Shown here in pieces: positions 9,757 through 43,839 of a stretch of DNA of 64,000 nt. Below the pieces are notes generated by a model that saw nothing but the letters and a program-made list of their open reading frames with translations, had not been told where the DNA came from and ran no database searches. The stretch lies in assembly GCA_977862235.1 (NCBI GenBank), contig OZ374563.1, positions 806,001 through 870,000 of the forward strand, in the 5' to 3' direction. The translations under genes and the position numbers were made by a program. Position 1 is the stretch's first letter; each line of letters opens with the position of its first letter. Source of the stretch: Dudresnaya verticillata. Lineage: Eukaryota.

Positions 9757-9765
9757 ATCCTCTTG

Positions 9766-12403: not shown

Positions 12404-12429
12404 GTCGCATTGAGGAGACGGGGACGCCC

Positions 12430-17147: not shown

Positions 17148-17420
17148 AGTTGCGGGTAGCGGATGACCGCGAAGGGGCGTGGTGCGGGAACACGCGGGGA
17201 GCCGCGCCGCGACTGACGTTCAAGCAAAGCAAGCACGCGGAGCGCGCACATCGGTCGTCGAATTTGGAAAGCGGAGAGCCGCGGTCAGCAGCAGACGAGT
17301 CATCAAGACGGCGGCGGGGTTGTTGCTGCGCGATACAATCGGAGATGACTCCGCAGGCAGAGGGATGACACTGCACGATGAGGGGTGGCACAGCGGGTTT
17401 CGCTCTTAGGAGGGGGGCGA

Positions 17421-18261
17421 TGTGGTGCAAGACCCCGGGGAAGAACCCCGTTTTATATCGCTACACCCGCTCGCGCGGTGAGTGGACGACGTTACACGCG
17501 GATCACCCGCGACTATAACATACGCCGATTACCGGCAGCTTGGATGGGCCCGTGCGCGGATGCCGCGCGTGCGAGATCCGGCCAATGGTTGACGCGCCCT
17601 TGGCACGGTGCACGCGCGCCCGTACAGCACGCGCCAACAGCACACACGGGTGACACGTCTCCACGTGTACACGCGTAACATGCGCGCCGAATATATCCGA
17701 GGGAATCCTCGCTCGGGTGCGCCCCAGCAATGCGCACCCTTAGATTACACTGGTTTACAGTGCGGTAGTAGTATTTCTACGCTAGGTATTTTTGCGCGAT
17801 ATTTTAGTGAGCTCGTGGTGCGCGCGCATGCCAAGTGTCCAGCGCACGGCGCCACACACGCGCGCGCATCTCCCGCGGGGGATACTTAGTATACGGGGTG
17901 AACCCCCCCTCACAGTAAAGCGCCAAGCAGGCCTAGGGACTCGAGGATACCCCCACCTTCGCACCCGGTGACGACACCGTGCGCGACTTGGGCTTACGTA
18001 CCCCGTTCTACTGCCTGGCTTCAACAGCACTCAGCGGCGTAATCGCCTTCATCGTTCTACGTGTACTACGGCACTCCAACGTGGGCCGGGGATTTAAAGT
18101 CGGCCCCGCCCACGTTTCAACCACCCGGGGCACACCCCGTGTCCCTAGCTCTACCACCCAACCGGCGCCGACCTCACCGTCGCCGCCTGCTACCAACCCG
18201 TGGGAGGACCACTTCGAACTCTGGTTCTGGGGTTGCGCCCTTGCTCGGGCGTGGCACCACA
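17421..18261 (+). repeat. 3' LTR of plus-strand Gypsy element 3
   Basis: TGTGGTGC...GCACCACA termini, with PPT AGGAGGGGGG at 17408-17417. 17640-18230 is clearly similar to 24310-24915. Confidence 0.85.
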
Positions 18262-19443
18262 CAGGTCTCACGGACTTCTTTACCGAAGGCTGCTGCCGTT
18301 TCGGGGAGTACCCCCGCGAGCTGCGAGCCAGCAATGGAAGGAGGCGGAACGCAGAACTCTGCAGTAGCTGCGGGTTTGACAAGTGTCGCACTGGCTTCGG
18401 TACCATCGAATTCCGCGCGTGGATTGGCTGATTTGGCGCCACAGGGCGATCCCCGAATTGGCAACCGCCAATCTAAAGCACGAATTATGACGAGGGTACC
18501 CTCGGCGCTGAGCACAGTACCACCCCAGTCGATCGCGACGTCAAGTCATCCGGCGTCATCGCCAAAAGGTGCACAACGACGCAAAAATGTCGGTTCCGGG
18601 GATCGACCCCCGCTTACTGCTCGGCTTGGTCAGCCACTATCCCGAGGTCGTCCTCGAACATCCTTCGACGCGGAAAACCGCGATACAACTCCTGTTTCCC
18701 CAGCGTGTGGCGCTGAAGCCAACACGGGGACAACTCTGATGACTAACTCCGCTCGAGGGGACGACAACATCGGGGATATAACCCCGTTTGAACTCGGTAT
18801 CAACACCAGAAGGAAGGTCGCCACAACGCGTGGAACGGGCACCAACTTCCCAGCCAAGCCCATGCCCGAGGTTCCCACGGGCACAAGTGACGGCTTGTGT
18901 GGTGTCCGCGACTATCAAGCTGGAGGAGACTCCGATTGCGACCAGAGTACGCAGAGCGCCTCGACGCCAACGCCCATCGAGGTCAACCCTAGAGCAGAGT
19001 CTGTACCTGCGCTCCCACGCCGACTCGCACTCCTACGACAAACGACACCGGGGTCAACCTCGTATGAGATACCAAGTGGCACCGCCGCCCCACGGCGCGC
19101 AACGTTTGGCCACAGGTGGTCGGACCACCGCATCGTGGAGATACCCACGTTCATGACGCATTATAACGAGGCTCACCCTCGCCTGAGAGCAGGACTCCTA
19201 CTGCTGCCCCCTCCACCGCGGGGACCCCGCGCGCGTAAAGTGGTTGACCATGAGTATACCGACGAAGTTCTCTTCTTCGAGGTTGAATGGTTCGGGTATC
19301 TGAGTTTCGCTAACACACTCGAACCCATCGAGACCCTACCTCGCAGTCAGGTCCTGCACTATTGCCGAAATGCCAAGTTGGGAACACCCAGTATGATACA
19401 TACTGCCATGGTCGGCTCACGTCTAATGCACATCCAACACTAA
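18262..19443 (+). CDS. Low-complexity linker plus chromodomain (3' end of pol of plus-strand Gypsy element 4)
   Basis: RKVVDHEYTDEVLFFEVEWFGYLSFANTLEPIETLPRSQV. The nominal ORF start (18061) lies within the preceding LTR. Confidence 0.75.
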   Translation, partial: QVSRTSLPKAAAVSGSTPASCEPAMEGGGTQNSAVAAGLTSVALASVPSNSARGLADLAPQGDPRIGNRQSKARIMTRVPSALSTVPPQSIATSSHPASSPKGAQRRKNVGSGDRPPLTARLGQPLSRGRPRTSFDAENRDTTPVSPACGAEANTGTTLMTNSARGDDNIGDITPFELGINTRRKVATTRGTGTNFPAKPMPEVPTGTSDGLCGVRDYQAGGDSDCDQSTQSASTPTPIEVNPRAESVPALPRRLALLRQTTPGSTSYEIPSGTAAPRRATFGHRWSDHRIVEIPTFMTHYNEAHPRLRAGLLLLPPPPRGPRARKVVDHEYTDEVLFFEVEWFGYLSFANTLEPIETLPRSQVLHYCRNAKLGTPSMIHTAMVGSRLMHIQH

Positions 19444-20822: not shown

Positions 20823-22063
20823 ATGCCGAAGGCCACCGGAGCTGAGGCTGCGGCCCTGGCGGCGTCAATGGCATGTCTTGCCACTTTACTTGTGGTTTGG
20901 CGCCGCTCTCGCTTGCAAAAGCAAACAGCTACACGGAAACGCAGAGTGACACGCCGGTCGGCACCAACACCTCAATACCGGCGCGCTGCGCTTCTCCGGC
21001 CTGTGAGCACTACGAAGGCAACTCCATGGAACCAGATTCTGTCCTGTGGGACGGACAACGAATTTTTGGTATCAACCAACTTTACGAAAGATATCATTAC
21101 GCAACGTATCCTGCCCTACTTTCTTCAGGAACGCAATACATGTAATTTCGGAAGCCCGTACAGGACTGGGGTTAAGACAAGAGGACGAAACCCTCTTCTC
21201 AACAGTATAGACCTATTGGGTTTGGCGCTGTGGTACATAAAGAGCAGGGGGCTATATACACTTTATACCCAATATTCGGCATCGTACCCTCAAGCATAAG
21301 CGTGTGGCTAGACTACAGCCTCGAAGTACTCAAGAATGTCGTGACAAGGACAGAAAGGACTGACTTCGAAATTAAATGGCCGTCACTAAACGAAATGAAA
21401 GCATCGGCTGCACTATTGGAAAAGAACAGGGTAAACGGATTGCTTCTTTCTGGAGTGTTTGGTATTACAGACGGCGGAAGGATGCCTTGTGCCGACTACA
21501 CAAATGTTGACCTGCAGAACGCCTACTATGAAGGCTTTACGCAGTCCGTGGAGGTGACAAATCTATTCGTGTTCAACTTTTTCGGTGAGCTCATTCATAC
21601 CGCCGTCAACTATCCAGGTAGTTGGCATGATAATAAGCTGGCAATGGCGTCTGGCTTGTACTACCCCAAGTTAGGGGACGAAATAACACCTCCTGGAATG
21701 GCGATTCTGGGTGACACCGCGTTCGTCAACAATCTTCGAGCGACTAACGGGAAAGTTATCAGAAGCAGACGGGCAAATGAAACGAGTGACGTACCTAACT
21801 CCTCTTATCTTGCAGCCGTTGATATAATTCTACAGCGCGTTACGCCAAGCGAGAGGCAAAGCGCAGAGTGGGGCATAAGGGCTATTAAAGGTCCCTTCTC
21901 AAGGCTGAAGGTTCCGCTACCTGCTGATGCAAAGAAACGGCTCCGTCTGCTAATAGTGTGTTGCCACCTTTTCAATTTACGAACAAGATTTGTCGGGCTA
22001 AACCGAATCAGGACTACGTATAGCAGAGAACATGGCACTGACAGTTCCGTACTTTTTGGTTAA
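20823..22063 (+). pseudogene. Harbinger-type DDE transposase (DDE_Tnp_4-like) with one frameshift near 21245
   Basis: GITDGG, NYPGSWHD, ILGDTAF, RQSAEWGIRAIKGPFSRL. ORFs 20823..21299 and 21230..22063. Confidence 0.9.
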
Positions 22064-23145
22064 ACATCATCTCTCTCATTACGACTCGTCGGTGACTGCT
22101 GCGACTTTGACAGAATTTCTAATACAGCCTTCATTTGCAACATCATTTCTGTGGCAGGCCGCAGAGATTCCTTCAGCTCTTCTCGAACCCTCCTTACCTC
22201 CTCCCTAACAACTGATACCTCGTCTCTAAACAGCTTCTTAATGCCCTCTGCATCCCTATCTCCGTGCGGTCCCATTTTGTCTTGACTGAATGAGTGAGAA
22301 ATGGTTCCAATGTGTTCCGTTAATTTTCCAACGTGTTCAAGCATCGCTTCGTCCAGTCGTGATATCTTTGAAGGCGTTGCTATTCCACCCTTACCAGCTT
22401 TACGCTTTCCCTGTCTCGTACCCACTGTATTATGTTCCTCTTCTGTCTGCCAACGACCGCCAGCTACCAAACTGTTACCATCCGAACCATCTTCGTTGTC
22501 GTCACCACTGCCAAGAACTTTCGCGGCGCACTTATTCTGGATTGCACGTGCAATGTGCTTAGCACGGCGAACTGGAGCCGGGCAAGACGGATCGCCAGTC
22601 TTTTTTTTCGTGTTTGCCATCTTATCAAACTTGTTCTTTAGGGATTCAGCGTCACGGTTAGGCCTGCTATTATGCGTTGCCCACTCCTCAAATTCTTTCC
22701 CTACTGCCGCCCAGTGGTTGGACCCCAGCGGCTCCACTTTCTCGACGATATCGAGTAAAGCGTTCACATCTTCTAAAGAGTAGTTCGGTGCTCCTGCTCT
22801 CGTCTGCCTTCCTTTGCGTAGTCGCGGCTGTGCGATGGGAGCTGCCAAGCCGTTTGTGGTCGTTTGAGTGACTGCCTGAGACGGTTGTGGTGTTTCAATG
22901 GATGTTGGCGGTGTCGGTACGTTTTTGCCAAGGCTTGTGTGGGTGGAGGTGGGCATGGCATGGACAGGCTCCACGAGGTCCAGCACTTCGGCGCCATAGT
23001 CGCCTTGAGCCGGTATGGGAGGCATGGGCGGTATTTGTGCAGGGTCCGGGAGCCTAGTACCATCCGCCATGCCTGCTCGGCGTGAGGAAGACTCTCCGGG
23101 ACCGGAAGACTTCGCCGATCTGTTAAGAAATACGACACGCAGCAC
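22060..23145 (-). CDS. Myb/SANT-like DNA-binding accessory protein of the Harbinger-type element
   Basis: NYSLEDVNALLDIVEKVEPLGSNHWAAV...RDAESLKNKFDKM, with a C-terminal coiled coil. Convergent with the transposase inside the TIRs. Confidence 0.85.
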   Translation of the reverse strand: MLRVVFLNRSAKSSGPGESSSRRAGMADGTRLPDPAQIPPMPPIPAQGDYGAEVLDLVEPVHAMPTSTHTSLGKNVPTPPTSIETPQPSQAVTQTTTNGLAAPIAQPRLRKGRQTRAGAPNYSLEDVNALLDIVEKVEPLGSNHWAAVGKEFEEWATHNSRPNRDAESLKNKFDKMANTKKKTGDPSCPAPVRRAKHIARAIQNKCAAKVLGSGDDNEDGSDGNSLVAGGRWQTEEEHNTVGTRQGKRKAGKGGIATPSKISRLDEAMLEHVGKLTEHIGTISHSFSQDKMGPHGDRDAEGIKKLFRDEVSVVREEVRRVREELKESLRPATEMMLQMKAVLEILSKSQQSPTSRNERDDV

Positions 23146-23297
23146 GAGAAAAAAGTGGTGATTTGGCAGCAGGAGTCTTTTCTTGAAAAGCTATCACTCC
23201 CTACAAATCTGGCGATATGGTATTTTCTGCATGCACCCACTGCACACCCCTTTTGGTTTCCGGGGGAGCCCCCTGAGGCGCGCGCACTATATGCGCT

Positions 23298-24257: not shown

Positions 24258-24942
24258 TGCGGTGCAGCGACCAGACCCTCTTTTTGCGCGGACGCCCGCT
24301 GTTTTACACTCACACACGTGTGCCCATTCACCCACGTGTATACGCGCACACGCGCGCCACATATATCCGAGGGAGTCCTCGTACGGATGCGCGCCAACAA
24401 TGCGCACCCTTAGATTACACTGATTTACAGTGCGGTAGTAGTATTTCTACGCGAGATATTTTTGCGCGATATTTTAGTGAGCTCGCGGTGCGCGCGCATG
24501 CCAAGTGTTAGGCGCACGGCGCCAGACACGCACGCGCACCTCCCGCGGGGGATACTTAGTATACGGGGTGAACCCCTCTCTCAGTAAATCGCAAAGTCCG
24601 CAGCAGAGTCGAGGGTACCCCCGTACTTGCACACGGTGAAGTCACCGCCTGCGACTCGGGTTACGTAACCCAACTCTTGCTTGCGCGGCCCAACCGCTTC
24701 GTTCATCCTACAGCCGACGTCGGCGTTGCTGTTCGTGGATCTGAACCACGGTTAACCACCAACGTGGTCGGGGCTTTACAGTCGACCCGACCCCGTTGTT
24801 TCTACGTTCCGGGGCACACCCCGTGCTCCGTGCTCTACCACCACACCGGCGCCCGCCTCAAAGCGTGGCGCCTACTACCATCGTGGGAGACCACTTGAAC
24901 ACTGGTTCTGGGGCAATCCCCGTCTTTGGGTGTTGCACTACA
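24258..24942 (+). repeat. 3' LTR of plus-strand Gypsy element 4
   Basis: PPT GAAGGGGGGG at 24245-24254. Termini TGCGGTGCA...TGCACTACA. Homologous to the LTR at 17421-18261. Confidence 0.8.
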
Positions 24943-24987
24943 CTTATCGGTGTCACCAGTGATGGAAGCGATTTCACATTCGCGGAC

Positions 24988-27918
24988 ATGGCAATGAGCG
25001 AACGAGTCGCGTGGCTCAGCCTCTCCGTTTGTCTCATCAAGGATGGCAATCCTATTCTGATGCAACACTTCAAGGAGAACTTCGAAGGGTGTAGCGGCAA
25101 GGCTCTCGTACTCGATGTGCTAGGAAACGCAATGTTGCAAGCACTCGATGGCTTTGAGCGCAAGCTCTGCGTCTTGCGCGTTATGTCTACGAGAGCAGGG
25201 TATATGTCCACCTACGGTATATCCGAACATCAAGGATGGAGCGCTTCGAAGATTACCAGCATCATCAGCATTGTATCCAAGCTGATAGACGCCGCTGAGG
25301 GAAGGTTCAAAATGGCTTGGCCGGACGCCACGTCGTTTACGAAGTTATGGCTAGAGGCACCTGTTCGACTGCCCCGCTCCTTCATTTCCGATGAATGCAA
25401 CGGCACGACTTGCGAGCGATTCATCGGCATTTTGAATACCGTCGTATTTCCCCTTTCCCTGCAACATTTCGAAGTCGACAAGGGAAAAATACCGGACTCA
25501 GACTTGGAGAAGCAATGGCCGTTGTCCCACCCGTATCCTTACGACGAGTTCATGGTATTTGATTCGGGAATGAGAATCGTGACTCACGCAGTGCAAACAT
25601 TACGCAAGGATGGGTTTCATCCTAACAAAAATATTCCAAAGGCGTTGTATGAGACTCCCCTTGCTGGCAAGGATGCAAACACCAGGCCCTCGGTATCTGA
25701 TGTGAAGACCAGTCATCCTTTCTATGGTGCCGAAGATACATCGGAAGAGATCGACCAAATTCAGAAATCGATTCCAGGCCAATCAGGAAAGGACGATCCT
25801 ATCAAGACCAGCATCTACGGCGGCGACGTCGCGAACAGCAGCTCACGTTCAGCGAGCCAAAGCTCACGTTCCGCATCTTCATCTTCTTCAACGGATCGCA
25901 CCCCTGCTAACACTGCACCCAGACCTCTTGCTCCACTCGACTCGGAGATGAAGACGAGAGATTCAACCGCAATTGCGCAACGGGGTGATTTCTCGGTCCC
26001 CCGAAAAGTGCGCTTCCGGAAACGCGAAGAAGTGCACTTCATGACAGACCAAGAACCCGATGATGATGAAGTGCTTATCGATGAGGGGAAAGGTTATGAT
26101 GGCTCCAGTGGTGATGAAGAGGTTGTCGGTGAGAGGAAAGGTTCTGCTGGCTCAAGTGGTGATGAAGTGGTTGTCGATGAGGGGAACGGTTCTGATGGCT
26201 CCAGTGGTGTTGAAGAGGTTGCTGTGATGAAAGGACAAGGGCAGGATGAAGAAGGAAAGGAAAGAAGACCGCCTGCGAAGCCGCTTGTCCCCAAGACGAA
26301 GATGAAAGGACGGAGCTCCGTCCTTCCCAGGGAGGCTGCAAAAAAATTGCGCTCATACATGATCAGGCCTAGTCGTCGCCCTGCCCCTTTTTCTCGATTC
26401 AAGGAAGCTGCTGATGCGGAGAGAAGTGTAGCCACATCTGAGGGTTTGCACGTAGTAAGGAATGAGTACAATTCCGTCTACTCACGTGCAGAAACCATGA
26501 AGCAAGGCAGAAATCCGCCTACGAGAATTGAAGTAGAGCTGGGCGTACTACCAGAAGGGCACCTGCTGGAGCAACTTCTTCTGAGCGAAATCTCCGCGCT
26601 CCATCCAGAAGCACCCCACAGACGTGTGCTCGGGGAGGAGGACGTCAAGGAAGTTCGTGCATCCATCAAGACTACAGCTGCTTTCGCTTACCAGAGCGAT
26701 TTCCGCCTCGAAAGAAACCCGTCAGATACGCATCGTTGGGAGCACTGCACGAAATCGCACTTCGATATCCTGCGTGAGTGTTTAAGCAGAGACGGATACT
26801 ATGTTGACCGTCATTTCTTGGCTAGAACGGGAGCTCGACTCATGCCCGCCTGTGTTGATTACGTTACGCAACACATGGTAGCGAGGTTAGCGGAACAACT
26901 CCAGGACGGCAAGAGCTCAGATGACGCTGACAACTGGTGGCATATCATCACCTCTGAGTCGGAAGAGGGAGCAGCCGAGGTTTCGAAGGATTTCAAGGCC
27001 CTTCTACGAAAGGACAAGGATTTGGCGGCTAGGAACTTCCGGTTCCAAACCACTCCTCACATGTTCTGCGACAAGCTTATGCGGGAAGATTCGATGAAGG
27101 ATAGCTCGGGACAACTCGTGATTTGCGGGACGTTCAAGAGCAAATGCCTTCTGGAGCTATTCTTGTCCTTGTACGTGGAGTATGCCAAACTCCAAGACAG
27201 GGTGGAGCCGTTGCGCATCCCTTTGCGCGGAGCCCAGCTGATCTGTACTTCAGATCAGGTTTGTGCACAAACCTGCCACACCGACTTCATGGTACCGGAA
27301 CCGGGATGGTCTCCTTGTGCTGTTGGGCACAATAAGCCAAAGCGGATGTACGGCGTTGCTCCGGAGATGCTACATCTAACTATCATGTTTTGCGGCTCTC
27401 AACCTTTCGCAATTCGGGTGTGGCCACGGTCCCACAAGGTATTGAACACGAAGCGTCCGGAGGCTAGGACTCAGCTGATGCAGCACTTACCATCGAAGCT
27501 TGTAACTGTTCCGCCTTACAGTCTGCTAGTACTTCGCGGAGATGTCGCCCATGCGGGCGCGAGTGGAGAGGAGAAAAGAATTTCTTTTGGATGCGGGGGC
27601 CATGCACCCTATCCTCTCACACCTGCGCAGGATATGTATTCTCCTCATCGTGACAAACTCTTCTCCCTCCAAGTTGCTGGTCTACCTGTCAATGTCCGCG
27701 GTCACACCTACTTCGTCCGCTCCGGTAGTTCACTACATGACTCGCTCTGGACAACGAGAAGTCAAAACAATGTCGCATGGAATACGAATGACGAGAACCT
27801 TCCAGTCTCTCTTCAAACTCCGGGAAAGGTAGTGATGCCAGAAAGCAATGGAGATCAACAGTCTGATGGAAAGCCTGTAGATGGAGATGATGAGCAGTTA
27901 GATTCTGATTGCTGCTGA
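24988..27918 (+). CDS. ~976-aa protein with a C-terminal PhyH-like 2-oxoglutarate/Fe(II) dioxygenase domain
   Basis: QTCHTDF (HxD) ... IRVWPRSH ... VTVPPYSLLVLRGDVAHAGA (distal His) ... NVRGHTY (Arg). The frame is uninterrupted. The true 5' end may be truncated by the LTR ending at 24942. Confidence 0.75.
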   Translation: MAMSERVAWLSLSVCLIKDGNPILMQHFKENFEGCSGKALVLDVLGNAMLQALDGFERKLCVLRVMSTRAGYMSTYGISEHQGWSASKITSIISIVSKLIDAAEGRFKMAWPDATSFTKLWLEAPVRLPRSFISDECNGTTCERFIGILNTVVFPLSLQHFEVDKGKIPDSDLEKQWPLSHPYPYDEFMVFDSGMRIVTHAVQTLRKDGFHPNKNIPKALYETPLAGKDANTRPSVSDVKTSHPFYGAEDTSEEIDQIQKSIPGQSGKDDPIKTSIYGGDVANSSSRSASQSSRSASSSSSTDRTPANTAPRPLAPLDSEMKTRDSTAIAQRGDFSVPRKVRFRKREEVHFMTDQEPDDDEVLIDEGKGYDGSSGDEEVVGERKGSAGSSGDEVVVDEGNGSDGSSGVEEVAVMKGQGQDEEGKERRPPAKPLVPKTKMKGRSSVLPREAAKKLRSYMIRPSRRPAPFSRFKEAADAERSVATSEGLHVVRNEYNSVYSRAETMKQGRNPPTRIEVELGVLPEGHLLEQLLLSEISALHPEAPHRRVLGEEDVKEVRASIKTTAAFAYQSDFRLERNPSDTHRWEHCTKSHFDILRECLSRDGYYVDRHFLARTGARLMPACVDYVTQHMVARLAEQLQDGKSSDDADNWWHIITSESEEGAAEVSKDFKALLRKDKDLAARNFRFQTTPHMFCDKLMREDSMKDSSGQLVICGTFKSKCLLELFLSLYVEYAKLQDRVEPLRIPLRGAQLICTSDQVCAQTCHTDFMVPEPGWSPCAVGHNKPKRMYGVAPEMLHLTIMFCGSQPFAIRVWPRSHKVLNTKRPEARTQLMQHLPSKLVTVPPYSLLVLRGDVAHAGASGEEKRISFGCGGHAPYPLTPAQDMYSPHRDKLFSLQVAGLPVNVRGHTYFVRSGSSLHDSLWTTRSQNNVAWNTNDENLPVSLQTPGKVVMPESNGDQQSDGKPVDGDDEQLDSDCC

Positions 27919-28223
27919 TAACAATTGTAAGAATTCATCCTTACGCATTCTTTGTAAACTTGTATGACTTTACTGTTCCATTCACTATGCTCGCGACAGT
28001 CGGCAGACGGTGGTCATGATCTCGGCGATCGCCAGCCTGCAGGCAGTGACGAGAGATTGACGACTCACTTTCCTGCGGACGCATCCGTGGACGCGAGAAA
28101 TGCAATGAAGGTAAAGATACCTCCATAGCAATATATTGCTATGGAAGTATCCTTTCGAGTTATAAATCTTTTCTGCAACGTTAGAAGATGTACCCCAAAA
28201 CGCCTCTCCTCCGGAAGGACAGT

Positions 28224-28812
28224 ACATGTTGACAGCAATTCTCCCTGTCGACAAAGTAGGAAAGGACCATTGTCAATTGGTTGCTAGGATGACTCATCCT
28301 TTCATGCACTAGGAAAGGACAATTTATTTTGTATATTTGGCTTGGTTACAAGAACATCTTGACAGCAATTCTCCCTGTCGACAAAGTAGGAAAGGACCAT
28401 TGTCAATTGGATGCTAGGGCACCTCATCCTTTCATGCTGTAAGAAAAGGACAATTTATTTTGTATCTTTGGCTTGATTACAAAAGCATGTTGACAGCAAT
28501 TCTCCCTGTCGACAAAGTAGGAAAGGACCATTGTCAATTGGTTGCTAGGATGACTCATCCTTTCATGCACTAGGAAAGGACAATTTATTTTGTATATTTG
28601 GCTTGATTACAAGAACATGTTGACAGCAATTCTTCCTGTCGACAAAGTAGGAAAGGATCATGGAAAATTGTTTGCCAGGCTGCCTCATCCTTTCATGCAC
28701 TAGGAAAGGACAATTTATTTTGTATAGTTGGCTTGATTACAAGAACATCTTGATAGAAATTTTCCCTGTCGTCAAAGTAGAAAAGGACAATTGTCATTTG
28801 GTTGCTCGTGTG
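28224..28812. repeat. Tandem array of ~130-bp units, ~4.5 copies
   Basis: TTGACAGCAATTCTCCCTGTCGACAAAGTAGGAAAGG recurs at 28229, 28359, 28490, 28620 and (diverged) 28750. Confidence 0.97.
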
Positions 28813-28836
28813 CCTCATAAGGAGAGAGTGACGAGA

Positions 28837-31286
28837 TCAAAAGAATGGGTCCAGCTCCTCGTCGTCTTCCAGAATATGGATCCCTTCTTCCACATAGTTT
28901 TCGATAACACTGTCCCTTGCACAACTGTTATGAAAGGTCTCTTCTCGGTCTTGGCTCTCTTTTTCAATTCTATCCTTTGCCAGATGGTCATGGTATTCTG
29001 CCTTTGACCGTGAAAACCTATTCGCCAACCTGGATCCGATCTTGTCCTTATCCAAGATCATCAGACCAGGGAAAACATCTTCGTCCTCTTCGTGCAGTGC
29101 TTGCAAACGACCACTACGATTTACATCGACGGTGCCATCTTGAGATTTTCTTACTCCGCTCTCATCCTTACGTGCAACAGTGTGCAAGGTTATTGAGCCT
29201 AAGAGAAACGTTTCGATTCTGTTCACATTTTTTCCAAGTTCTGATGCAATGATAGCACGAAAGGTCAGCGCTAGAGCATGCACTGCTCTCAGAGATAGCT
29301 TTGTGGACCGCAAGACGTTCGCCATACCCTCTGCTCGCGAAGCCTCCATTAAGACACGAAGTGCAACTGTATGAAACGACACCTGTTCGTATTGAGTCCA
29401 TTTTTGCTCGGTCACTGGAGCGATTCGCAACAATCGCCCTGTCCGTCCTTTCTCTCGGTACACAGCTTGATACCACAGACTAATAGTTAATGAGGGGAAG
29501 GCATTTTGGAGGTTCACGAACTGGATTTCGTTAGTCTTGTCCACGCTTTCTATTTCCGTCTCCCCATCCCCAGCCTCTAGATAGAAGCTGTACCAATAAC
29601 AGTTTCCAAACTGATCTTGGAAGTATAGAACTCTTTTTCCTCCGAGGAAAGAGGGGGGAGTTGAATTCCGTACTCATCTGAAACGATTGCCTCGTTCTCT
29701 TCAAGGTATGCAAGGATGAAACCGAAAGACTTAAAAATGACTTTTCGAGCAGCCATTCTTCCAGTGTTGATGACCCTTGCGGTGTGTTTTCGTAGAACAT
29801 CAATACCACCCGTGAATGTCTTCTCCAAATTCCAATACTTCTTAGCCTCTGCACTCTTAGAAATTGTATTCTGTAACGGATCTCCTCGAGCGCGCTTATG
29901 CCCTTCCTCCCGACTTTCATGAGCTCTTCTTAACACTTGATCAACCTGTCCTTTCATTGCTCTCTTCTCAAATATGCGAGCATGCCGCAACTCCGTCTTT
30001 GATAGGCCGCTCGTCAGCCGACGCATCATGTCCAAGGGAACTGTGTCTGTGCTTTTACCGACAAGATCAATCGAATCACAGCCATGTCTAGAATTTTCAG
30101 TCGCCCTCCTTGCAGACCGAAGGAAGAAGACGTACAGCCATTCCGGCATAGCAACTGACGTATGCGGTGGGCTATCTCGACCGGGATATGGGACGAAGAA
30201 CAAAGATTTCCCGGCCCTCGAAGACCAAACCAAATGAAGAATCATGTCGGAGTAAAGTTCCCTTGCCCGGCTGGCAATTGACGACTTGTGCTTCTTCTTC
30301 GTGTCAATGCGCTGCCTCGAGAATAGGTATGCTGGAAAGGTCGGAATAGCGCTTGATGCACGTTCTCTTTCGGATTCATTAGCGGCGGAGATATCGGAAG
30401 CGTCAAACGGAAGCTCCACAGCGGAACTCAGATCTGAAGAAAGGTTGGCATTGAGTGTTTGCAAAATGGTCCACGTCAGTCGAACACGTTCTGCAATGAG
30501 AGGTAGACCAGGTACTTGTTCCATCTTCTCAATTTTAACTTCTTCTTCCTGCTCCTGCTTCTTGCGCTTACCCGTGCACCCATCCTTTCTTGAATGTCTG
30601 CGCTGCATATTCAAAACGTTTACATTGCTCATAGCATCCTTCAGACAATCAGAAATTGGCGATATCTTCTGCACTTCGTCTTGTACTTCTTTCTTCAGCG
30701 AACCAAGAGAGGTGTTGATGAAGTCCTTGATTTCACGTAACTCACGTCGGACAACAGAAGCGACCTGTAGGTTCACATTAACGTCTGGAACCAGTGTCCG
30801 CATACCTCCACCACGTCCAGATATGCCTGCTGCGCAATTCTCTCTGAAGCTAGACTCCCCGTTCTGGATTGGTACCTGCGTGCTCATCGTACCAGAACCT
30901 ACCCTGATTCGATTCTGCTCTTGAGCAGCTGATGTAACCACGGCGGACCTTGACGTTTCTGCAAGCATATCCGTTGTGAGATATAAACTTACAAGGTTGG
31001 CGCGACTGGCCAGTATGAGTGAAGATGATACTGAAAGTTTTCAGAACGTGAGCTTGGAAACGTCTATGCCGATAACCTTTCCTGGTTGTAGAGGCCAAGC
31101 TATCCTTTCATGTTTTGGGTCTGAAAGAAGGGCACCTTCATGCGTAGGATTTACATTCTTTCCTTTCTGAGATCGTGTTTCCCGCCATAATGGGAGCAGC
31201 AACCGTGTGCTGTCATGGCGGTCAGAACTTACCGGATGGACACAGGCATTCACCTGCAGGTGAGACGCAACGGAAATGATTGCCAA
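28837..31286 (-). pseudogene. Gene B' (unknown function), homologue of CACTA cargo gene B
   Basis: ORFs 31041..31286 and 29577..30968 share a frame, followed by 28837..29544. Motif matches to 40047-42551 are given under findings. Confidence 0.6.
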
Positions 31287-32079
31287 ATTCAGAAATAGTC
31301 CTAGGTTTGTAAATTACGCGGCATTCCCAATCTGTTGTCCTTTCATTGGCCCTTTCCATGGAGAAAGGATGCAGTTCACCGTTGCAGCAATCTTCCTGTG
31401 CGCGCGCCCTGCTCCAGTGAAAGTGGGAAACCTCGTCGTTTGACAGTCATCAAACAAATAAAACGCCACGTTCACGTTCTGAAAACGCGCATAGAGAGTG
31501 TTTGACTGATTGACTCACACCACATCCTGGCATTTCCTAGGGAATGAGTGTCCTTTCCTACCTGCTGCGAACATGCTGACGCAGAGAATTGTCGTTTGAA
31601 AGGGACCCGGATCGTCTTTGCGGGTCCTGGTTGGATAGTTAATGTGCCCAATGTGACCAGAACGTGTTTCCATTGGATTAAACCAGTGGTTTGGGGCACA
31701 AGCAAATCCATGCCGGTTTATGGCGATTTCACAACCTCGTCCTTCCCGCGCTCTTCAGCGCGCTGAAGAGCGGTTGTGGGAGTTCAAAGTCTGCAAGGAC
31801 GGAATTGGAAGGATATATAGCTAGGCGCCTAGGTCCGCTTTTCATGTTCCATGTGATATCACGCGCACGAAGATTCTCCTTCAACCCGTATTTACTCCGC
31901 AAGAACGCCGTCACCTTCGGTCTACGGCTAAGTTTCCGAGAATTCGTAAGAGAAAACAGGGTATGTACCATATGGTAGCGTCCAGATACTTCGTATTTCA
32001 AGAGCTTTCTACCAATAATTCTGACGTTTCGAAATCCATTGACCTGTCCTTACATTGTTTTTACATTGCCAACGTCCTT

Positions 32080-32206
32080 AACCTTTCTTTCTGCTCAACA
32101 TTTCTTCCAGATCAACCTTTCCTCATGCCGAACCTTTGCTCATGCTGAACCTTTGCTCATGCTCAACCTTTCCTCATGCTCAACCTTTCCTCATGCTCAA
32201 CCTTTC
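32080..32206. repeat. 17-bp minisatellite (AACCTTTCCTCATGCTC)n, ~7 copies
   Basis: Directly visible in the sequence. Confidence 0.9.
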
Positions 32207-32699
32207 TCCCCGTGCAGCTTTTTTCTCCGTATATGACCACTACGTCTCTATACATGGTCTCTGGCTCGTGATGGATGTGCAGAACGAATCACCAGAAGAA
32301 AGGTTCGGCCGGGGGAAAGGATGATTCTAAAGATGGCCGCTTTGTTATGGACATGTGCGGATGAGGCTGGCCGCCCACGGCCACTAGGTGAGTCATTGAA
32401 CTACACTTCATATGTGACTTAGGGGCGTTTCGTAGGTTGGCTAGAGAAGAACTATTACTTAGCTAGAAAACTGCGAAAGCTTCTCACTGTAGACAGTATA
32501 CGTACGTTCGGCATGTGCCGTGGTACAGGTGAATTAATGCTAAGTAAAGAGGTCGCGAAAGGGCGGCGCCTGCTTGCCCCAGGGCTCTTGAAACTTTCTA
32601 GTTTCAGAAGCACCGGAGAAAATAGTCTAGTGGTACTATCACACGGCTTGTAAACCGTACGTATTTCCAAAGCACACCTGGCCATAGAGTCCTGGGAAT

Positions 32700-35696
32700 A
32701 CGGAAAGTAGGGAATGCACACACATGCTCCATGCTCCGTTAGGACCTGCCGTGTCTTTCCTCCTTCAGATTCCTCATCTCAGTAATCATGGAGTAGGAAT
32801 GTGTGCGCATTAGAAAGAGTCGAAGTAAAATGATAAAGGTGGGAAAGGTCCATGGGTATGATGCATGCAACCAGGAAAAGGAGGGTCTGACCTGTCCGTT
32901 TGGCCGTGTTTGCAACAGCGTATCCATGCAGTTGCGACTTCTACTCGTACAAGGATAGTATTGCTTCTATAATATAGCGGCGCTAGTTCTTCGAAACGAC
33001 ATATGCGAAAAGAAGTGATGGAAGAGGAGCAGTTCAGTAAACGTAGCTGGGTTTACTCACATTGAAAGCACACGCACAACTACGAAACCGGAAAGCTAAG
33101 AACCTAGCGTAGCAAGGACGGTATTTGTAGGGGAGGGCAAATGGAAAAGCTCGGATTGTGGAAGTGCGATATGTGTAACAGCGTGGGGATGAGGATTATA
33201 ATAGGCGAGTCTGGCTCGGTCCAATCCTAGAGTACTGCAATGTCTTGGCGAAAGGACGGGAACTTCGACATTTGGAGATGCACAAACTGCAAACTTGCGG
33301 GGGGCGGCGCGGTATGCTACATGCAGTTGTTCTGACTCTACAATTAGAGCTGCGCACAAGCCGTGAACTGATTTGACAAATTATAAAATTATATCGCAAA
33401 TCACCTTTTCTGTGGCTGTTTCTAATTTTGAGACACGCGGAGCAGGAGATCTCTGATTTGGCCCCAGCCAAATGTAGTTTGGGACCCTGATTTGTCCCCC
33501 CAGTGTCGTCCTGCAAAGTACTGCCCTGTCTTCAAAGCCAATTCCAGGTCAGTTGCAGCCGAGTCCGTTTGCCGGGGGAACCTCTCTGACATTTTCGAGA
33601 GCAAGACATTTCTGTCTTGGGACTTCCACATTTCTGCATATAACACAGCGGAACTAGAACGCACGGGGTCATGGTAGTACGTGTAAAATCTGGTGACGCA
33701 TCTAGCACTGGAAATAAAGACGGAACCGAATGCTGTTCGCATAGTCTTTCCGGCCAAGGCATTTTTCAGAGCCTCAATCTCGCAGAAAGTGAGGAGGGCC
33801 GCTTGAATGAGTCTGGACGTTTGTAGAATACTTGTTTCCTCTTCTCCTGCTCGCAAGGTGCCAGGATTTCCAATTGCATCTCGCAGTGAGGAATGTTCAC
33901 CGCGGAGACATATATGTCCTAGAGCTTCCAAAGATATAACGTCTGTTCTTCGCACGAAATGACAGAGGGGTCCTTGAATAAACATGGAGTACATTTTCAA
34001 GAGATCGTGACAGACATCCTTGTTCCACTCTGAAGAATTATCTACCCATTCACCCCATGCTACACCTGTTTTTCTAACAGAGCGTTGTAGACGTTCCAGG
34101 TAGGCAAGCTCTCGCTGCAGGCATAGAGTTAGACATGGTATGTTTCCAGATAGATTAGCTCCATTTCTTCTCATATAATCCACGGAGGTTTGTGATACGA
34201 ATCCGTGAAGAGGTTTTAAAATCCTGTACATGATGACATCCTTGTCAAATATGGACAACGTTAATTTGCGTATAGAACGGATATAGCTACTCTCCCCGAT
34301 GTCGTTACTATAGTCGTTAGGGGTTGCACCGCATATCGATTCCATGAGGAAAGTGCCCAAAACATCCATCTCAGACAATAACCGAACGCACATCGTGACA
34401 TCCTTAACGGTTTTGGATGTACAGTCCACAGTGGACCCCTTGATTCCTGAGAGAAGTGTCTTAAATGTACCCTCACGTCTGAATATTCCGGTTAGTGGGC
34501 GATGAGTTGTTCCGTTCCTAGATGACTTCGATAGCGGTATTGGCTCGCAGGCTTGATGAATATTCTTCAGCGGTACTTGCTTGTTTTTTACATATCCCAA
34601 CTGAATACCGTCGATGCAAAGCGCGGGGATATCGTCTGTGTCTAATGTGCATGTCTCGCACTCAAAGAGACATGGATCAGGACGCAAAGTCATCAACCTG
34701 ATCATCAAAGAGCATAGGTCTTGTAGTTTTCGCGTTGAGCGGCAATGTACGGTGGAAGGCTGGAAACCGCAGCTGATGGCACCCGTGGCCTGAGAGTGAT
34801 AGTGCTTGAGGCGGCTACTGATCGTTCCATTTCCAACCACAACCCCAGTGAGTTCTCGGCGTAACAGAGCGTGTGTGGCAGCAGAGGTAACGGACTCTAG
34901 GAGAATACAGTTCCCGACCGTCAGCCACTATCACTGCATAGCAGTTCTCACGAGAGCATTGAAACTCTTCGACATGTAGTGCACAAGGACCGATTGTGCT
35001 CATGAGCACTCCGTCAGTCCATAATTTTCGAGACTTCTCTTTCCTTGATGATTGGCAGCGTCGACAGTTTCTGGGGGCAAGAGATAGGAATGGTTTCCCT
35101 TGTCTTGCAAGCAACCCAATCGAAAGGTCTACTGCTATGGATCTCTTGCAATTAACGGGGGAAACTGGAAGCTTGGAGATTGACGGTGGGAGGTCCGTGG
35201 TGTGGATAGTTGGTGATGGAGTAATGGGATTCTCTTCGTCATCTTCCGGGCACATTTATTCTCCCCTGAGTGTCTGAACAACACGTGTGTGCATGCAGCC
35301 GCCACTAAACGTAGTGTCACAGAATGCACAGACATGTAACGTCTTCTCGACAACTCGCACCGGGATAAAGTGAAGAAATTCATCGGAGGGGAATTGAAAT
35401 TTCATTGAGACGAGACGCGCCCTCTGGTCAAACATATCTTGTATATCTGGACACCCAGACATATATGTCTCGATGTCGTTCTGAAAAGTTCGTGAATACA
35501 GCTGAGCGAGAATTTGAGCAGACTTGTCAAGGGAAATACCACAGCATTTTGCGAGTTTTGCTAAGGCCAGGCGGAAACCCTGCACGTGAATGCAAGCGTT
35601 GTCTTAACTTTGGGGTTTTGCGCCATTGATGCGAAACTCAGTGATACCGACACAGCTACAGTAAAAGACATGGTCTACCCCAAGCCACGTGCTGAC
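32700..35696 (-). pseudogene. Decayed SWIM + CxC-cluster transposase, KDZ (Kyakuja-Dileera-Zisupton)-like
   Basis: Two SWIM-like motifs (FYCSC...CIH at ~35660-35586; CAFC...CMH), CRRC...FQCSRENC...ADGRE, FECETC...LCIDGIQLG and KTGQYFAG. Several stops and frameshifts. The 3' limit is uncertain. Confidence 0.6.
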
Positions 35697-36446
35697 CACT
35701 ACGAAGGCGATTTTAAAATGATTCGATAATTTCTATGGTAATATCCATTATTTTTTTGCGTCAGATTTTGCGCCGGCCCCGACGGATGCACATCATTAAA
35801 ATCCCAGATTTGCAGCATGAATATCCTTGCGCCACAGCCTCGCGCCGTTGGTTTATGTTTCATTTCCCCGGCGCGTTTTGATATTTTGTTTCTGGCGGTT
35901 TGGAGCATTATCGTTCATGTTTTGATGTGTTTTCGCAATACTTCAAATTGCCCAGGCCTGGGTCATGAAAATTACGAGTTGTTTTGCGAATCCTAATGAA
36001 TCTGGTTCAAGGGACTAATGCTTTATTTCCTTTGTTCTGCCGCTTACAACATACGTGTTGCGATGCGGCGGTATCTCGCCAAATCACGGTCTAGAAACAT
36101 CTCATTAATGCTGCGCTATACTCTGCAGTAATGGAACGACACGTTCCAGGAATGATGATGCGGCCGCATCTTCCCGTTCGACATTTCCTTACAAAGCATG
36201 CTTTTGGAGGTTCCATTTCTGTTGTGCGTTTCGTAGGCGAAGCATGCTTCTGGCGCGACCGCGCTCAGTGCACATTGCGCACATTCGCAGCACATTCGAA
36301 TGCTGTATGTGTGGCGCCATACCATACCCGCTGCCGTTTATTTTCCTTTACTTTCGGTTCTTTACTTGACTAATTCTTATGTGCCAGGCCTGATGCGAAT
36401 GCGGACGTCCGGACGGTTAAGCGTTTGCGGGTGCTCCGTCCGACCA

Positions 36447-38117
36447 CTAGCCAATCCACTCCTTAAGCCTATCCTCGTCGATAAGAGCATCGAGCTCGTC
36501 ACAAAGCGCGTCCCCCTCACACTGAAAGCAGGGGACTGCTATCTCAATGACTCCAATCGTTTGCGAGGCCCGTGAAAGGTCGGCCGACCATGCACGTGCC
36601 CTAACGGCTTGTGTGCGCCTCCACGATATGTGGAACCCCCGCGGGATACGACGTGTCTCCGGACAGCGCCCGCTATCTTTATCTTCCCGATTGGGATCTT
36701 CGACATCTGATGGGACGCGTTTCGAGACTCGCAAGGAATGGACGAATCTTCTATCCTCTGAAGACCACTCCCTGGAATCTCTCATTAGCACAGTGCAGGC
36801 ATCACCTTCTTCACTCTCTTTGTCCCTAGGGCGTCTCATGCCGCGGCCGCAGCTCCTCCCAGCGAACAGTGCGCAGGGGTATGCTTCGTTATCTACGGTA
36901 TACTCGTATGTTCCAAGAACCCTGAGGACTCTTCCATGGGACGTGGCCACTTCCCTTCTCAACATTTGAAGGCGATCGGCATCCGAAGATATACCCAACA
37001 CATCACACAGCATACCAAAACTGCTGAAGGACACAGAAATATCATCCGTGGACAGTGAAGGGCATTGAGACAACTGAAAGGAGGGGAAAAGGCAATACAG
37101 ACAGATCCATTATCACGTGCGTACTTGGCACGCCAGGTCCTGGCCAGAACCGCGAACAGCCCCACATCACAGTCGGCTGAAGCCTTGATGTAGTACTGCG
37201 CGGTATCGTTTTGAAGTTCGACATCATCCATTGTCTCACACCCCTCCCTAATTACCCTTCCCGGCGTCAGCAAACCAAGTGTAGTTCGTTCTGAGACTGG
37301 CGTTCCCTGCGAATCTGGGCCCGGCCGGCCCGTCTGATTGTTACGAGGCGTTTGAGGTGCACATGATTCTTGCGAGGGACCCGGCGCGGCCGCGCCAGGA
37401 CCTCTTGAAGAACTCCTCCTTCTCAATGCCGAAGATCTTGTTCTAGATGTTTTTCGCATCGGCCTTTTTCTCTTCCTGCGACTCGGCGTTTTCTGCAGCG
37501 CAAGGGCAAGACGAAACCGAAGATAGCACAGGACTCGCTGACAACTCTCATCCAGGCCTGGATTAGTACTGAGTTCGATCCGTGCCGAGTTGCTTTGTAC
37601 GCGATTCTTGAGCGCTTCAACCTCTGTTATCAAACTGGAATACCTGTCGCGAAGATTTTCCAGCTCTCCAATTGTCTTAGTATGTTGAACAGATTCGCGA
37701 CCAGTCACAGGTATTGCCTGTTCCGTGTACACGTCTGTCTGATATTCTCTGTCACATATACGACCTCTTCGCGTAAACCCATCAGACGGGCCCGTCTTCA
37801 TCCTCCACGACAGCAACAGGTTGTAGTTTGTTTCCCGATCTTCCTCCCAGACCCGAAGAAGCCTACCAGCCAGGAACTCGACTTTTTCCACGGATGCCAT
37901 ATAGCCGTATTGGGCGTTTGCGGCATACTCTATGGTCGCGGCCGCGATCACATCTCCTTCATCAATTTCATCAACGGCGAGTACCTCAGCATCCCACCAC
38001 AGCTCATCCCCATTGTCCATCTCCCAGGCGACTTGCACCCATTCGTTCGCCAGCGGTAGTGCATTCCGCTCTCTGCAGGCGCGCCTCATAATACCAATCG
38101 CAATTGTAATAAAACTT
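36447..38117 (-). pseudogene. CACTA cargo gene A: N-terminal Tudor/SH3-like barrel, coiled coil and unknown C-terminal domain (one frameshift)
   Basis: WVQVAWEMDNGDELWWDAEVLAVD...ATIEY. ORFs 36959..38179 and 36447..37073 overlap at ~37060. Confidence 0.55.
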
Positions 38118-38953: not shown

Positions 38954-39284
38954 CACTTGATTCATTCGGGAGAGAGAAAAGTTGGCTTCAGAGCTCTGAA
39001 GGGAATTCCGAGAAAGCAATCATTGCCATCATGCTCGGCCGAGCTCCGAATAGGCGTATACGCCCGAACTTGCACGCTGTTTCAGGCACGATCAAAGACA
39101 TGCTTCACATTACTCAAATTTCATGGATTGCAGCAATATTTTCCCTCGCTGCATAAAGTGCACCTGGACTGTCTTGCTGAGTGTGCTCAACGTCCATGGA
39201 CGTACATCAGGTCCTCTAGGTTAACCTACTGGGAAAGGCCGTTCCTTTCTTCTACTGAAAACATCTCGAGTTATTGAAGACAAT

Positions 39285-43830: not shown

Positions 43831-43839
43831 GGTCATTAT

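What the first reader, a model, noticed from the sequence alone, without database searches (positions are those of the whole stretch)
24988..27918. PhyH-like 2OG-Fe(II) dioxygenase with an unbroken frame inside a TE cargo module
Seen: HxD (HTD at 27277), WPxSH, distal H (27550) and a downstream Arg (~27697) are all intact in an unbroken ~976-codon frame, whereas most neighbouring genes are disrupted. The gene converges on a homologue of CACTA gene B across a tandem array and lies ~5 kb from a KDZ-like transposase. Established: fungal KDZ transposons associate with TET/JBP dioxygenases. The motifs here look PhyH-like rather than TET/JBP. Inference: a transposon-borne oxygenase that may modify nucleic acid or chromatin marks. 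The substrate is unknown.
Basis: partly seen in the sequence, partly recalled or inferred. Interest (0 to 1): 0.75.

Follow-up and report, generated by a model that had tools for sequence, protein, structure and literature searches.

The report
Unnamed PhyH-like oxygenase gene amid transposons
An unbroken 976-codon gene in a transposon-crowded stretch of an unidentified eukaryote encodes a protein whose tail is predicted to fold as an iron- and 2-oxoglutarate-dependent oxygenase of an unnamed family related to giant-virus PhyH proteins; it is likely an active enzyme, but nothing found here shows that it rides on a transposon or what it oxidises.

Summary
The frame 24988-27918 (+) is open for 976 codons, and the motifs HTD, WPRSH, RGD..H and NVRGH sit at the stated coordinates. 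The other five frames carry 27-48 stops each.

An AlphaFold2 model of residues 560-950 (pLDDT 86.6) matches PhyH-class Fe(II)/2OG oxygenases best (KanJ, Z 16).

The protein belongs to an unnamed family. 39 cluster representatives were found, all from unannotated assemblies. None of 40 sequences hits any Pfam oxygenase model. The family links to Pfam PhyH only through small giant-virus proteins (hhalign probability 98%). The putative metal and 2OG ligands are conserved in 33/36 to 37/39 members.

The transposon-cargo claim is not supported:
- The "KDZ-like" and "CACTA gene B" neighbours have no Pfam match, no homologue and no paralogue in the window.
- No terminal repeats or second copy were found.
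- The recognisable transposons nearby (two Gypsy, Copia, Harbinger) are separate elements.
- An LTR-like repeat ends 43 nt upstream of the start codon.

No whole genome or relatives' contigs were available, so mobility remains open. The substrate is unknown.

The parts
24988..27918 (+). Unbroken 976-codon ORF (P0001) plus stop. Architecture: N-terminal helical domain, long low-complexity linker, C-terminal oxygenase domain.
   Evidence: It is the only copy in the window (tblastn and family HMM).
24988..25287 (+). N-terminal domain (residues 1-100), weakly homologous to the N-domain of the long relatives P0002, P0017, P0019, P0012 and P0015.
   Evidence: hmmsearch 11.4 bits. hhalign probability 82%, E 1.1e-5 over 65 columns. 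The alignment extends to W84. The AF2 model is unusable (pLDDT 52.7).
25675..26397 (+). Ser-rich, acidic and basic low-complexity linker (residues ~230-470), including three 48-nt tandem units at 26061-26221.
   Evidence: Composition table; tandem repeat.
26665..27837 (+). Modelled oxygenase domain (residues 560-950): N-terminal helices plus the double-stranded beta-helix. Beta strands I to VIII span about 27235-27720.
   Evidence: AF2 pLDDT 86.6, pTM 0.87. KanJ Z 16.2, rmsd 3.1 A, 216 residues aligned. The same ranking appears without the Foldseek prefilter.
27277..27285 (+). H764-T-D766, putative first two iron ligands (HxD), on the second beta-helix strand of the model.
   Evidence: H in 33/36 and D in 33/36 family members that cover the column. 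Strand position.
27421..27435 (+). W812-P-R-S-H816, a family-specific motif.
   Evidence: W in 35/39, H in 37/39. It aligns with WPxSH of the giant-virus PhyH proteins.
27535..27552 (+). R850-G-D852-V-A-H855. H855 is the putative distal iron ligand. R850 and D852 are invariant.
   Evidence: R in 39/39, D in 39/39, H in 37/39. H855 opens the strand at model residues 296-298.
27691..27705 (+). N902-V-R904-G-H906 on the last long strand. R904 is the putative binder of the 2OG C5 carboxylate.
   Evidence: R in 35/37, H in 34/37. The strand is at model residues 340-352. The role is inferred from the general layout of 2OG oxygenases (recalled).
24332..24945 (+). LTR-like repeat unit, copy B. It ends 43 nt upstream of the ATG. 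Copy A lies at 17661-18275 in the same orientation.
   Evidence: Self-BLAST gives 79% identity over 599 nt. A 229-nt core is 92% identical. Boundaries come from the alignment. GC falls from 0.60 to 0.51 at about 25000.
28224..28818 (.). 130-nt tandem array (4.6 copies) between the gene and the convergent minus-strand ORFs.
28837..31040 (-). Nothing links them to the oxygenase gene.
   Evidence: No Pfam match, no homologue, no paralogue in the window.
33422..34927 (-).
   Evidence: No Pfam match, no homologue, atlas best 0.81 without a KDZ family.

Best explanation
The unbroken 976-codon frame at 24988-27918 encodes a protein whose C-terminal ~390 residues are predicted to fold as a PhyH-class Fe(II)/2-oxoglutarate oxygenase and that is likely catalytically competent. 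By inference from the general mechanism of such enzymes, H764, D766 and H855 would hold Fe(II) and R904 would bind the C5 carboxylate of 2-oxoglutarate. Oxidative decarboxylation of 2OG would then drive hydroxylation, or a related oxidation, of a substrate that is not known. The protein belongs to an unnamed family. Small giant-virus proteins that carry the same four motifs, two of three of which pass Pfam's PhyH threshold, provide its only sequence link to Pfam PhyH. Its closest long relatives share the layout of a helical N-domain, a long charged low-complexity linker and a C-terminal oxygenase. That layout suggests, weakly, a macromolecular rather than a metabolic target. The gene lies in a stretch where every recognisable gene is a transposon gene, and an LTR-like repeat abuts its 5' end. 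Nothing found here places it inside a definable mobile element.
For: The open frame is far beyond chance. The AF2 model has pLDDT 86.6 and pTM 0.87. The 33 Foldseek PDB rows shown (ranks 1-50) are all 2OG/Fe(II) oxygenases, nearly all PhyH-class, led by FtmOx1 at E 4e-6, then KanJ, SnoN, GriE, AndA, EctD and AsqJ. VIA-align gives KanJ Z 16.2, rmsd 3.1 A, 216 residues aligned, and all 50 listed entries are PhyH-class. An independent scan of 48,161 chains puts KanJ, TlxJ, AviO1, AsqJ, EvdMO1, AndA and SnoK at Z 15-16, PHYHD1 at 12.9 and PHYH at 12.0. The full-library search found 39 representatives with E<=1e-3, all matching residues ~700-940. Ligand conservation: H764 33/36, D766 33/36, H855 37/39, R904 35/37. 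In the model's strand order, HxD lies on strand II, His on strand VII and Arg on strand VIII. The family HMM hits three giant-virus proteins at 27-35 bits with the first three motifs aligned, and hhalign gives probability 98.2%, E 3e-14 with all four aligned. Those proteins score 24.5, 17.4 and 25.6 bits on Pfam PhyH (cut-off 22), and their contigs carry NCLDV capsid, topoisomerase II and eRF1 genes. The alignment with P0005 is colinear (35% identity over 365 residues), so no intron is needed. N-domain homology with the P0002 group is weak but present. One relative, P0017, starts at the position equivalent to residue 7 of this protein.
Against: No member of the family matches Pfam PhyH or any other oxygenase model: 0 of 40 at E<=10. 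A profile search of PDB sequences found no oxygenase. I could not inspect model coordinates, so the geometry of the iron site is unchecked. Three members lack HxD and two have Tyr in place of the distal His, so some copies are probably inactive. Four of five N-domain relatives have about 60 more N-terminal residues, and an LTR-like repeat ends 43 nt upstream of the ATG, so this copy may be 5'-truncated. No data on expression could be obtained. The substrate guess rests only on the architecture.
Confidence: 0.7

Rival explanations
1. The gene is the accessory (cargo) gene of a mobile element. The element might also include the orphan minus-strand ORFs at 28837-35603, and its left end might have been cut off by the LTR-like insertion at 24332-24945. 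The enzyme would serve the element, for example by countering silencing.
For: Every recognisable gene in the 64 kb is a transposon gene. The 10 clusters looked up (the family's top matches) come only from unannotated assemblies (Logan, ENA, JGI) with no names, as expected for repeat-masked genes. One relative's cluster has four contigs at 98.6-99.6% identity, two of them with split copies. GC is lower from about 25000 to 36500 than in the flanks. Earlier notes of this scan (unchecked leads) report unnamed PhyH-like oxygenases inside a MULE, Helitrons and fungal Gypsy elements, with similar top structural matches.
Against: No ORF of 75 aa or more in 28000-42500, and no other scanned ORF, has a transposase, reverse transcriptase, Helitron, KDZ or CACTA domain linked to the gene. 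No inverted repeat of 60 nt or more exists in the window, and no short terminal inverted repeat pairs the left boundary with 27900-44000. There is one copy in the window. The neighbour ORFs have no homologues. Codon-position GC does not group the gene with its neighbours (0.518 against 0.465-0.478). Word look-ups found no sequence link to the earlier findings.
Confidence: 0.3
2. The gene is a decaying relic. A once-longer gene lost its 5' end and promoter to the LTR-element insertion and is no longer expressed. The frame is still open only because the event is recent.
For: The LTR-like repeat ends 43 nt before the ATG, and the frame upstream of the ATG runs into the repeat. Four of five N-domain relatives start about 60 residues earlier. 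No displaced N-terminal exon was found among 1,523 ORF pieces of the window.
Against: There are 976 codons without a stop and all catalytic motifs are intact. P0017, and the shortened member P0043, start at the equivalent position. The two copies of the repeat are only 79% identical, so the insertions are not recent.
Confidence: 0.2
3. The gene came from a giant virus. It would be part of an endogenised viral fragment (roughly 25000-36500) or a transfer from such a virus, and the orphan neighbours would be viral ORFans.
For: The only sequence bridge to Pfam PhyH runs through proteins on NCLDV contigs. The block has lower GC than its flanks. The neighbours are orphans.
Against: The viral proteins are 229-244 aa stand-alone enzymes at 25-31% identity to another subfamily. 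None was confirmed with this protein's own domain as query. No NCLDV hallmark gene was found among the scanned ORFs. The long linker-rich architecture is shared with non-viral-looking relatives of 870-1244 aa.
Confidence: 0.08
4. It is a nucleic-acid base oxidase that works like TET/JBP and is carried by a KDZ/CACTA transposon.
For: TET/JBP genes do ride on fungal DNA transposons (PMC12730594: search listing, start of the abstract and two passages read). The protein has basic patches and acidic repeats that would suit a nuclear protein.
Against: No KDZ or CACTA gene could be confirmed. No Pfam TET/JBP match exists. The best structural matches are PhyH-class small-molecule enzymes.
Confidence: 0.05

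Closest known systems
PhyH-class Fe(II)/2OG oxygenases (Pfam PF05721; solved examples KanJ, TlxJ, AviO1, AsqJ, AndA, SnoN/SnoK, FtmOx1, EctD, PHYHD1, PHYH)
   Same: Predicted fold: Z 16.0-16.2, rmsd 3.1 A, 214-216 residues aligned with KanJ. The order is HxD, then His, then Arg on successive beta-helix strands.
   Different: There is no detectable sequence match to the Pfam model (0 of 40). A 41-residue insert lies between the His strand and the Arg strand. Extra invariant residues (S845, R850, D852, H816, H906) are present. The domain sits at the end of a ~1000-aa protein instead of being a 250-300 aa stand-alone enzyme.
Small PhyH-domain proteins of giant-virus contigs (L002 7067-7756, L003 9701-10435, L004 8776-9480)
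   Same: They share all four family motifs: Q..HxD, WPxSH, RGDLVHAG and NxRxH. Two of three pass Pfam PhyH.
   Different: They are 229-244 aa with no N-terminal extension. Identity to the P0030 subfamily is 25-31%. They were not retrieved with this window's own domain as query.
TET/JBP dioxygenase genes on fungal DNA transposons (Kyakuja-Dileera-Zisupton and others; PMC12730594)
   Same: An Fe/2OG oxygenase gene in transposon-rich DNA.
   Different: It belongs to a different oxygenase class. No transposase partner was found here, and no copy-number or boundary evidence is available.
AlkB-type demethylase domain in orchid Ty3/Gypsy elements (PMC9289625; search listing and start of the abstract only)
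   Same: It is a 2OG oxygenase associated with a retrotransposon. Gypsy elements and an LTR-like repeat lie next to this gene.
   Different: There the domain is part of the element's own coding region. Here the gene lies outside the two Gypsy elements of the window and on the opposite strand.

Membership tests
PhyH-class Fe(II)/2OG oxygenases | Double-stranded beta-helix fold closest to solved PhyH-class enzymes | tested here: met
   The AF2 model has pLDDT 86.6. Foldseek top hits are FtmOx1, KanJ and SnoN at E 4e-6 to 1e-5. VIA-align gives Z 16.2, rmsd 3.1 A, 216 aligned. An independent scan of 48,161 chains gives the same top group.
PhyH-class Fe(II)/2OG oxygenases | HxD...H iron-binding triad | tested here: met
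   H764, D766 and H855 are present. They are conserved in 33/36, 33/36 and 37/39 members. In the model they lie on strands II and VII. Three-dimensional geometry was not inspected.
PhyH-class Fe(II)/2OG oxygenases | Basic residue on the last beta-helix strand that binds the 2OG C5 carboxylate | tested here: inconclusive
   R904 is present on the strand at model residues 340-352 and conserved in 35/37. Its contact with 2OG is inferred, not modelled.
PhyH-class Fe(II)/2OG oxygenases | Match to Pfam PF05721 at the gathering score | tested here: not met
   0 of 40 sequences match at E<=10. Only indirect support exists: two of three giant-virus relatives pass at 24.5 and 25.6 bits against a cut-off of 22, and they align to the family at hhalign probability 98.2%.
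PhyH-class Fe(II)/2OG oxygenases | Fe(II)- and 2OG-dependent turnover | not testable with these tools
   This needs an enzyme assay.
TET/JBP nucleic-acid dioxygenases | Sequence match to the TET/JBP oxygenase domain | tested here: not met
   P0001 has no Pfam family at E<=10. No TET/JBP model appears among the weak hits of the 40 members.
TET/JBP nucleic-acid dioxygenases | Structural closeness to TET/JBP rather than to other 2OG oxygenases | tested here: inconclusive
   The listed rows (Z 10.5 and above) are PhyH-class, prolyl hydroxylases, plant-type 2OG oxygenases, T7H, Tpa1 and FIH. Unlisted families are not excluded.
Transposon cargo gene | Lies between the termini of an element that also encodes a transposase, reverse transcriptase or Rep | tested here: not met
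   No such domain was found in ORFs of 75 aa or more at 28000-42500. The recognised elements elsewhere are separate. No inverted repeat of 60 nt or more was found, and there are no boundary-pairing short repeats. The two LTR-like copies have no matching flanking duplication (read by eye).
Transposon cargo gene | Multiple genomic copies with shared boundaries | not testable with these tools
   No whole genome is held. No sequencing run was listed. There is a single copy in the window.

The most novel reading that the evidence does not exclude
This is one intact member of an undescribed class of mobile-element accessory enzymes. In this reading, a giant-virus-related, PhyH-like oxygenase family is carried by several unrelated kinds of protist and fungal transposons, and it oxidises a chromatin or nucleic-acid mark to keep the element from being silenced.
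Probability: 0.15. Interest if true: 0.8.

Novelty: new variant of a known kind. Interest (0 to 1): 0.4.

Why it matters
The fold and chemistry are familiar. The family itself has no Pfam model and no name among the clusters looked up, and I know of no studied member. It also joins the oxygenase to a long charged N-terminal region, unlike the stand-alone metabolic PhyH enzymes. If further copies show that it travels with transposons, it would add a second oxygenase class, beside TET/JBP and AlkB, to the enzymes that mobile elements carry. It would also give a testable candidate for a new anti-silencing activity. If it is a single-copy host gene, it is simply a divergent oxygenase of unknown substrate.

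Tried and rejected
- **Pfam and PDB sequence searches of the whole protein:** nothing relevant. A PDB profile search with A1 gave only chance-level hits.
- **ESM atlas on residues 560-976:** a PhyH cluster came first at 0.94 but shared only 143 features. I treated it as a lead only.
- **Own genome:** not held.
- **Sequencing runs:** none was listed and no RNA holder is listed.
- **Phage collection, tblastn:** no match.
- **Metagenome contig scan:** the single locus L001 is a false positive, a bacterial DUF4838 protein matching over 66 residues.
- **Viral contig scans:** those with this protein alone, with A2, A9 and A10 found no confirmed relative. Only A8 (the P0030 subfamily) did.
- **N-terminal domain:** the AF2 model has pLDDT 52.7, too poor to search with.
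- **Window ORFs against relatives' full lengths:** only chance-level hits.
- **Displaced N-terminal exon:** none found.
- **Codon-position GC:** does not separate the gene from transposon genes or tie it to its neighbours.
- **TET/JBP and AlkB structures:** none appear among the 50 rows listed. AlkB-like viral proteins appear only at Foldseek E 7e-4 or weaker in the viral library.
- **Literature:** three searches found no paper that describes a PhyH-class oxygenase as transposon cargo. That is no proof that none exists. I opened no paper's supplements.
Full report
**1. The observation**

Translating 24988-27918 (+) gives 976 residues ending in one stop. The stop-to-stop frame starts at 24745. 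The other five frames over the same bases hold 27-48 stops each, so an open frame of this length is not chance.

- HTD at 27277 (H764, D766)
- WPRSH at 27421
- RGD at 27535, followed by H855 at 27550
- NVRGH at 27691 (R904 at 27697)

The recognisable neighbouring genes are indeed broken. Two chromodomain Gypsy elements (8056-17219 and 58586-63332, both minus) and a Copia element (53610-55879, minus) have pol genes split over several frames. A 130-nt tandem array (28224-28818) separates the gene from convergent minus-strand ORFs.

**2. What the protein is**

Sequence libraries are silent. P0001 has no Pfam family at E<=10 and no meaningful PDB sequence match.

A full HMMER pass over 1.84 billion representatives found 39 proteins at E<=1e-3 (8 at 1e-10, 1 at 1e-30). 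Every one matches only the C-terminal residues ~700-940. The best is P0005 (455 aa, E 2.7e-54). It aligns colinearly at 35% identity over 365 residues, so no intron is needed.

At E<=0.01 none of the 39 has an oxygenase Pfam domain. The only hit is a sub-threshold GmrSD_N match in P0021. At E<=10, 0 of 40 sequences touch PhyH or any other oxygenase model. The ten clusters I looked up come from Logan, ENA and JGI assemblies only, and none carries a name.

An AlphaFold2 model of residues 560-950, built on the 40-row alignment A1, has mean pLDDT 86.6 and pTM 0.87.
- Foldseek against the PDB: the 33 rows shown (ranks 1-50) are all 2OG/Fe(II) oxygenases, nearly all PhyH-class, including FtmOx1, KanJ, SnoN, GriE, AndA, EctD and AsqJ, at E 4e-6 to 3e-5.
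- VIA-align on Foldseek's list: KanJ at Z 16.2, rmsd 3.1 A, 216 residues aligned.
- An independent scan of 48,161 representative chains gives the same order. KanJ, TlxJ, AviO1, AsqJ, EvdMO1, AndA and SnoK score Z 15-16. Prolyl hydroxylases score about 12-13.5, PHYHD1 12.9, PHYH 12.0, thymine-7-hydroxylase 11.2 and FIH 10.5.
- In the viral library the first hit is a giant-virus protein named phytanoyl-CoA dioxygenase.

The model's strand order puts HTD on the second beta-helix strand, H855 at the start of the seventh and R904 on the eighth. That is the canonical layout of 2OG oxygenases; I recall this layout and did not compute it. I could not inspect coordinates.

In my domain alignment of the 40 sequences, conservation among members that cover each column is as follows:

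| Residue | Conserved in |
|---|---|
| H764 | 33/36 |
| D766 | 33/36 |
| H855 | 37/39 |
| R904 | 35/37 |
| S845 | 39/39 |
| R850 | 39/39 |
| D852 | 39/39 |
| H816 | 37/39 |
| H906 | 34/37 |

Three members have lost HxD and two have Tyr for the distal His, so not all copies are likely to be active.

**3. A sequence bridge to PhyH**

A scan of viral contigs with the P0030 subfamily alignment (A8) returned three loci. Each encodes a 229-244 aa protein. The contigs carry NCLDV capsid, topoisomerase II and eRF1 genes. Those proteins score 24.5, 17.4 and 25.6 bits on Pfam PhyH (gathering score 22), so two of three pass.

My family HMM hits them at 27-35 bits, and hhalign gives probability 98.2%, E 3e-14 over 107 columns. 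In the hhalign alignment Q..HxD, WPxSH, RGDLVHAG and NxRxH are all aligned; the HMM alignments cover the first three.

The family is therefore a far-diverged branch of the PhyH superfamily. It fails the Pfam model itself but connects through these viral proteins. Scans that used this window's own domain as the confirming query found nothing viral.

**4. Architecture**

Residues ~230-470 are Ser-rich, acidic and basic low-complexity sequence with three 48-nt tandem units.

Residues 8-73 align to positions 66-130 of an N-terminal domain shared by the long relatives P0002, P0017, P0019, P0012 and P0015. hmmsearch gives 11.4 bits, and this ORF is the only one of 1,523 window ORF pieces below E 0.01. 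hhalign gives probability 82%. MAFFT extends the match to an invariant Trp (W84).

The closest long relatives therefore share the three-part layout, while other subgroups carry unrelated N-terminal regions.

Four of the five relatives begin about 60 residues earlier. P0017, and the shortened cluster member P0043, begin at the position equivalent to residue 7 here. A model of the N-domain was too poor to use (pLDDT 52.7).

**5. Is it transposon cargo?**

I scanned window ORFs against Pfam in three calls:
- all 20 ORFs of 220 aa or more that I selected
- all 77 ORFs of 75 aa or more in 28000-42500
- 70 of the 138 remaining ORFs of 105 aa or more. The other 68 had already been scanned or lie within or antisense to long ORFs.

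The only transposon domains belong to the two Gypsy elements, the Copia element and a Harbinger (DDE_Tnp_4 at 21176-22063 with DUF6818 at 22060-23190). There is no KDZ, CACTA, MULE or Helitron domain.

The "CACTA gene B homologue" (29577-31040, minus) has no homologue and no paralogue in the window.

No inverted repeat of 60 nt or more exists in the window. Short-word BLAST finds nothing that pairs the gene's left boundary with 27900-44000. The gene is single-copy in the window.

A 615-nt LTR-like unit occurs twice in the same orientation, at 17661-18275 and 24332-24945. Identity is 79% overall with a 92% core. The second copy ends 43 nt before the ATG. I saw no matching flanking duplication.

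GC drops from 0.60 to 0.51 at about 25000 and stays at 0.44-0.50 to about 36500. Codon-position GC does not tie the gene to its neighbours.

Three things hint at mobility. The window contains no recognisable host gene. The ten clusters I looked up come only from unannotated assemblies. One relative's cluster spans four contigs at 98.6-99.6% identity, two with split copies. That last point fits repeated copies, but it also fits strain variants.

Earlier notes of this scan report unnamed PhyH-like oxygenases inside a MULE, Helitrons and fungal Gypsy elements, one family called giant-virus-related. These are unchecked leads. Word look-ups found no sequence link to them. I could not read any eukaryotic relative's contig: the metagenome scan returned only a false positive.

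**6. Verdict**

The fold and motif claim is right, and the gene is real and intact. The transposon-cargo module as described is not supported, and mobility is open (I put it near 0.3). The substrate is unknown. The nearest structures act on small molecules, while the long charged N-terminal region hints at a macromolecular target.

In print I found transposon-borne oxygenases only of the TET/JBP class (PMC12730594: search listing, start of the abstract and two passages) and the AlkB class (PMC9289625: listing and start of the abstract only). Three searches turned up none of the PhyH class.

Noticed in passing
window 12999-17219 (-): The Gypsy element at 8056-17219 has a 1406-codon open frame upstream of pol with no Pfam domain. 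It is far longer than a usual gag and carries a long Pro/Ala/Ser-rich and Arg/Ser-rich region.
   Followed up: no
window 48505-52260 (+) and 44290-47775 (-): Two pairs of long ORFs are each separated by a single in-frame stop: 759+491 aa and 814+346 aa. None has a Pfam match. The second pair includes a GC-rich 12-nt repeat at 47259-47554.
   Followed up: no
window 21176-23190: Harbinger-type pair: a DDE_Tnp_4 ORF (+) abutting a DUF6818 ORF (-). It lies between the two copies of the LTR-like repeat.
   Followed up: partly
window 18043-19443 (+): This 466-aa low-complexity ORF starts inside LTR-like copy A. It ends in a chromodomain-like segment similar to the C-termini of both Gypsy integrases (BLASTP 1e-8 to ORF 58586-59206).
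   Followed up: partly
window 42728-43786: A cluster of ~196-233-nt direct repeats at 85-92% identity. Its nature is unknown.
   Followed up: no
window 32060-32222: A 17-nt tandem repeat (7.5 copies) inside the low-GC block.
   Followed up: no
L004 11988-13301 (-): The giant-virus contig carries a TnpB-like ORF (Cas12f1-like_TNB 1.4e-17, OrfB_IS605 1.3e-6) about 2.5 kb from its PhyH-like gene.
   Followed up: no
L002 8265-9131 and L004 10053-10874: In both related giant-virus contigs a leucine-rich-repeat protein gene lies about 0.5 kb downstream of the small PhyH-like gene, with a short ORF between them.
   Followed up: no
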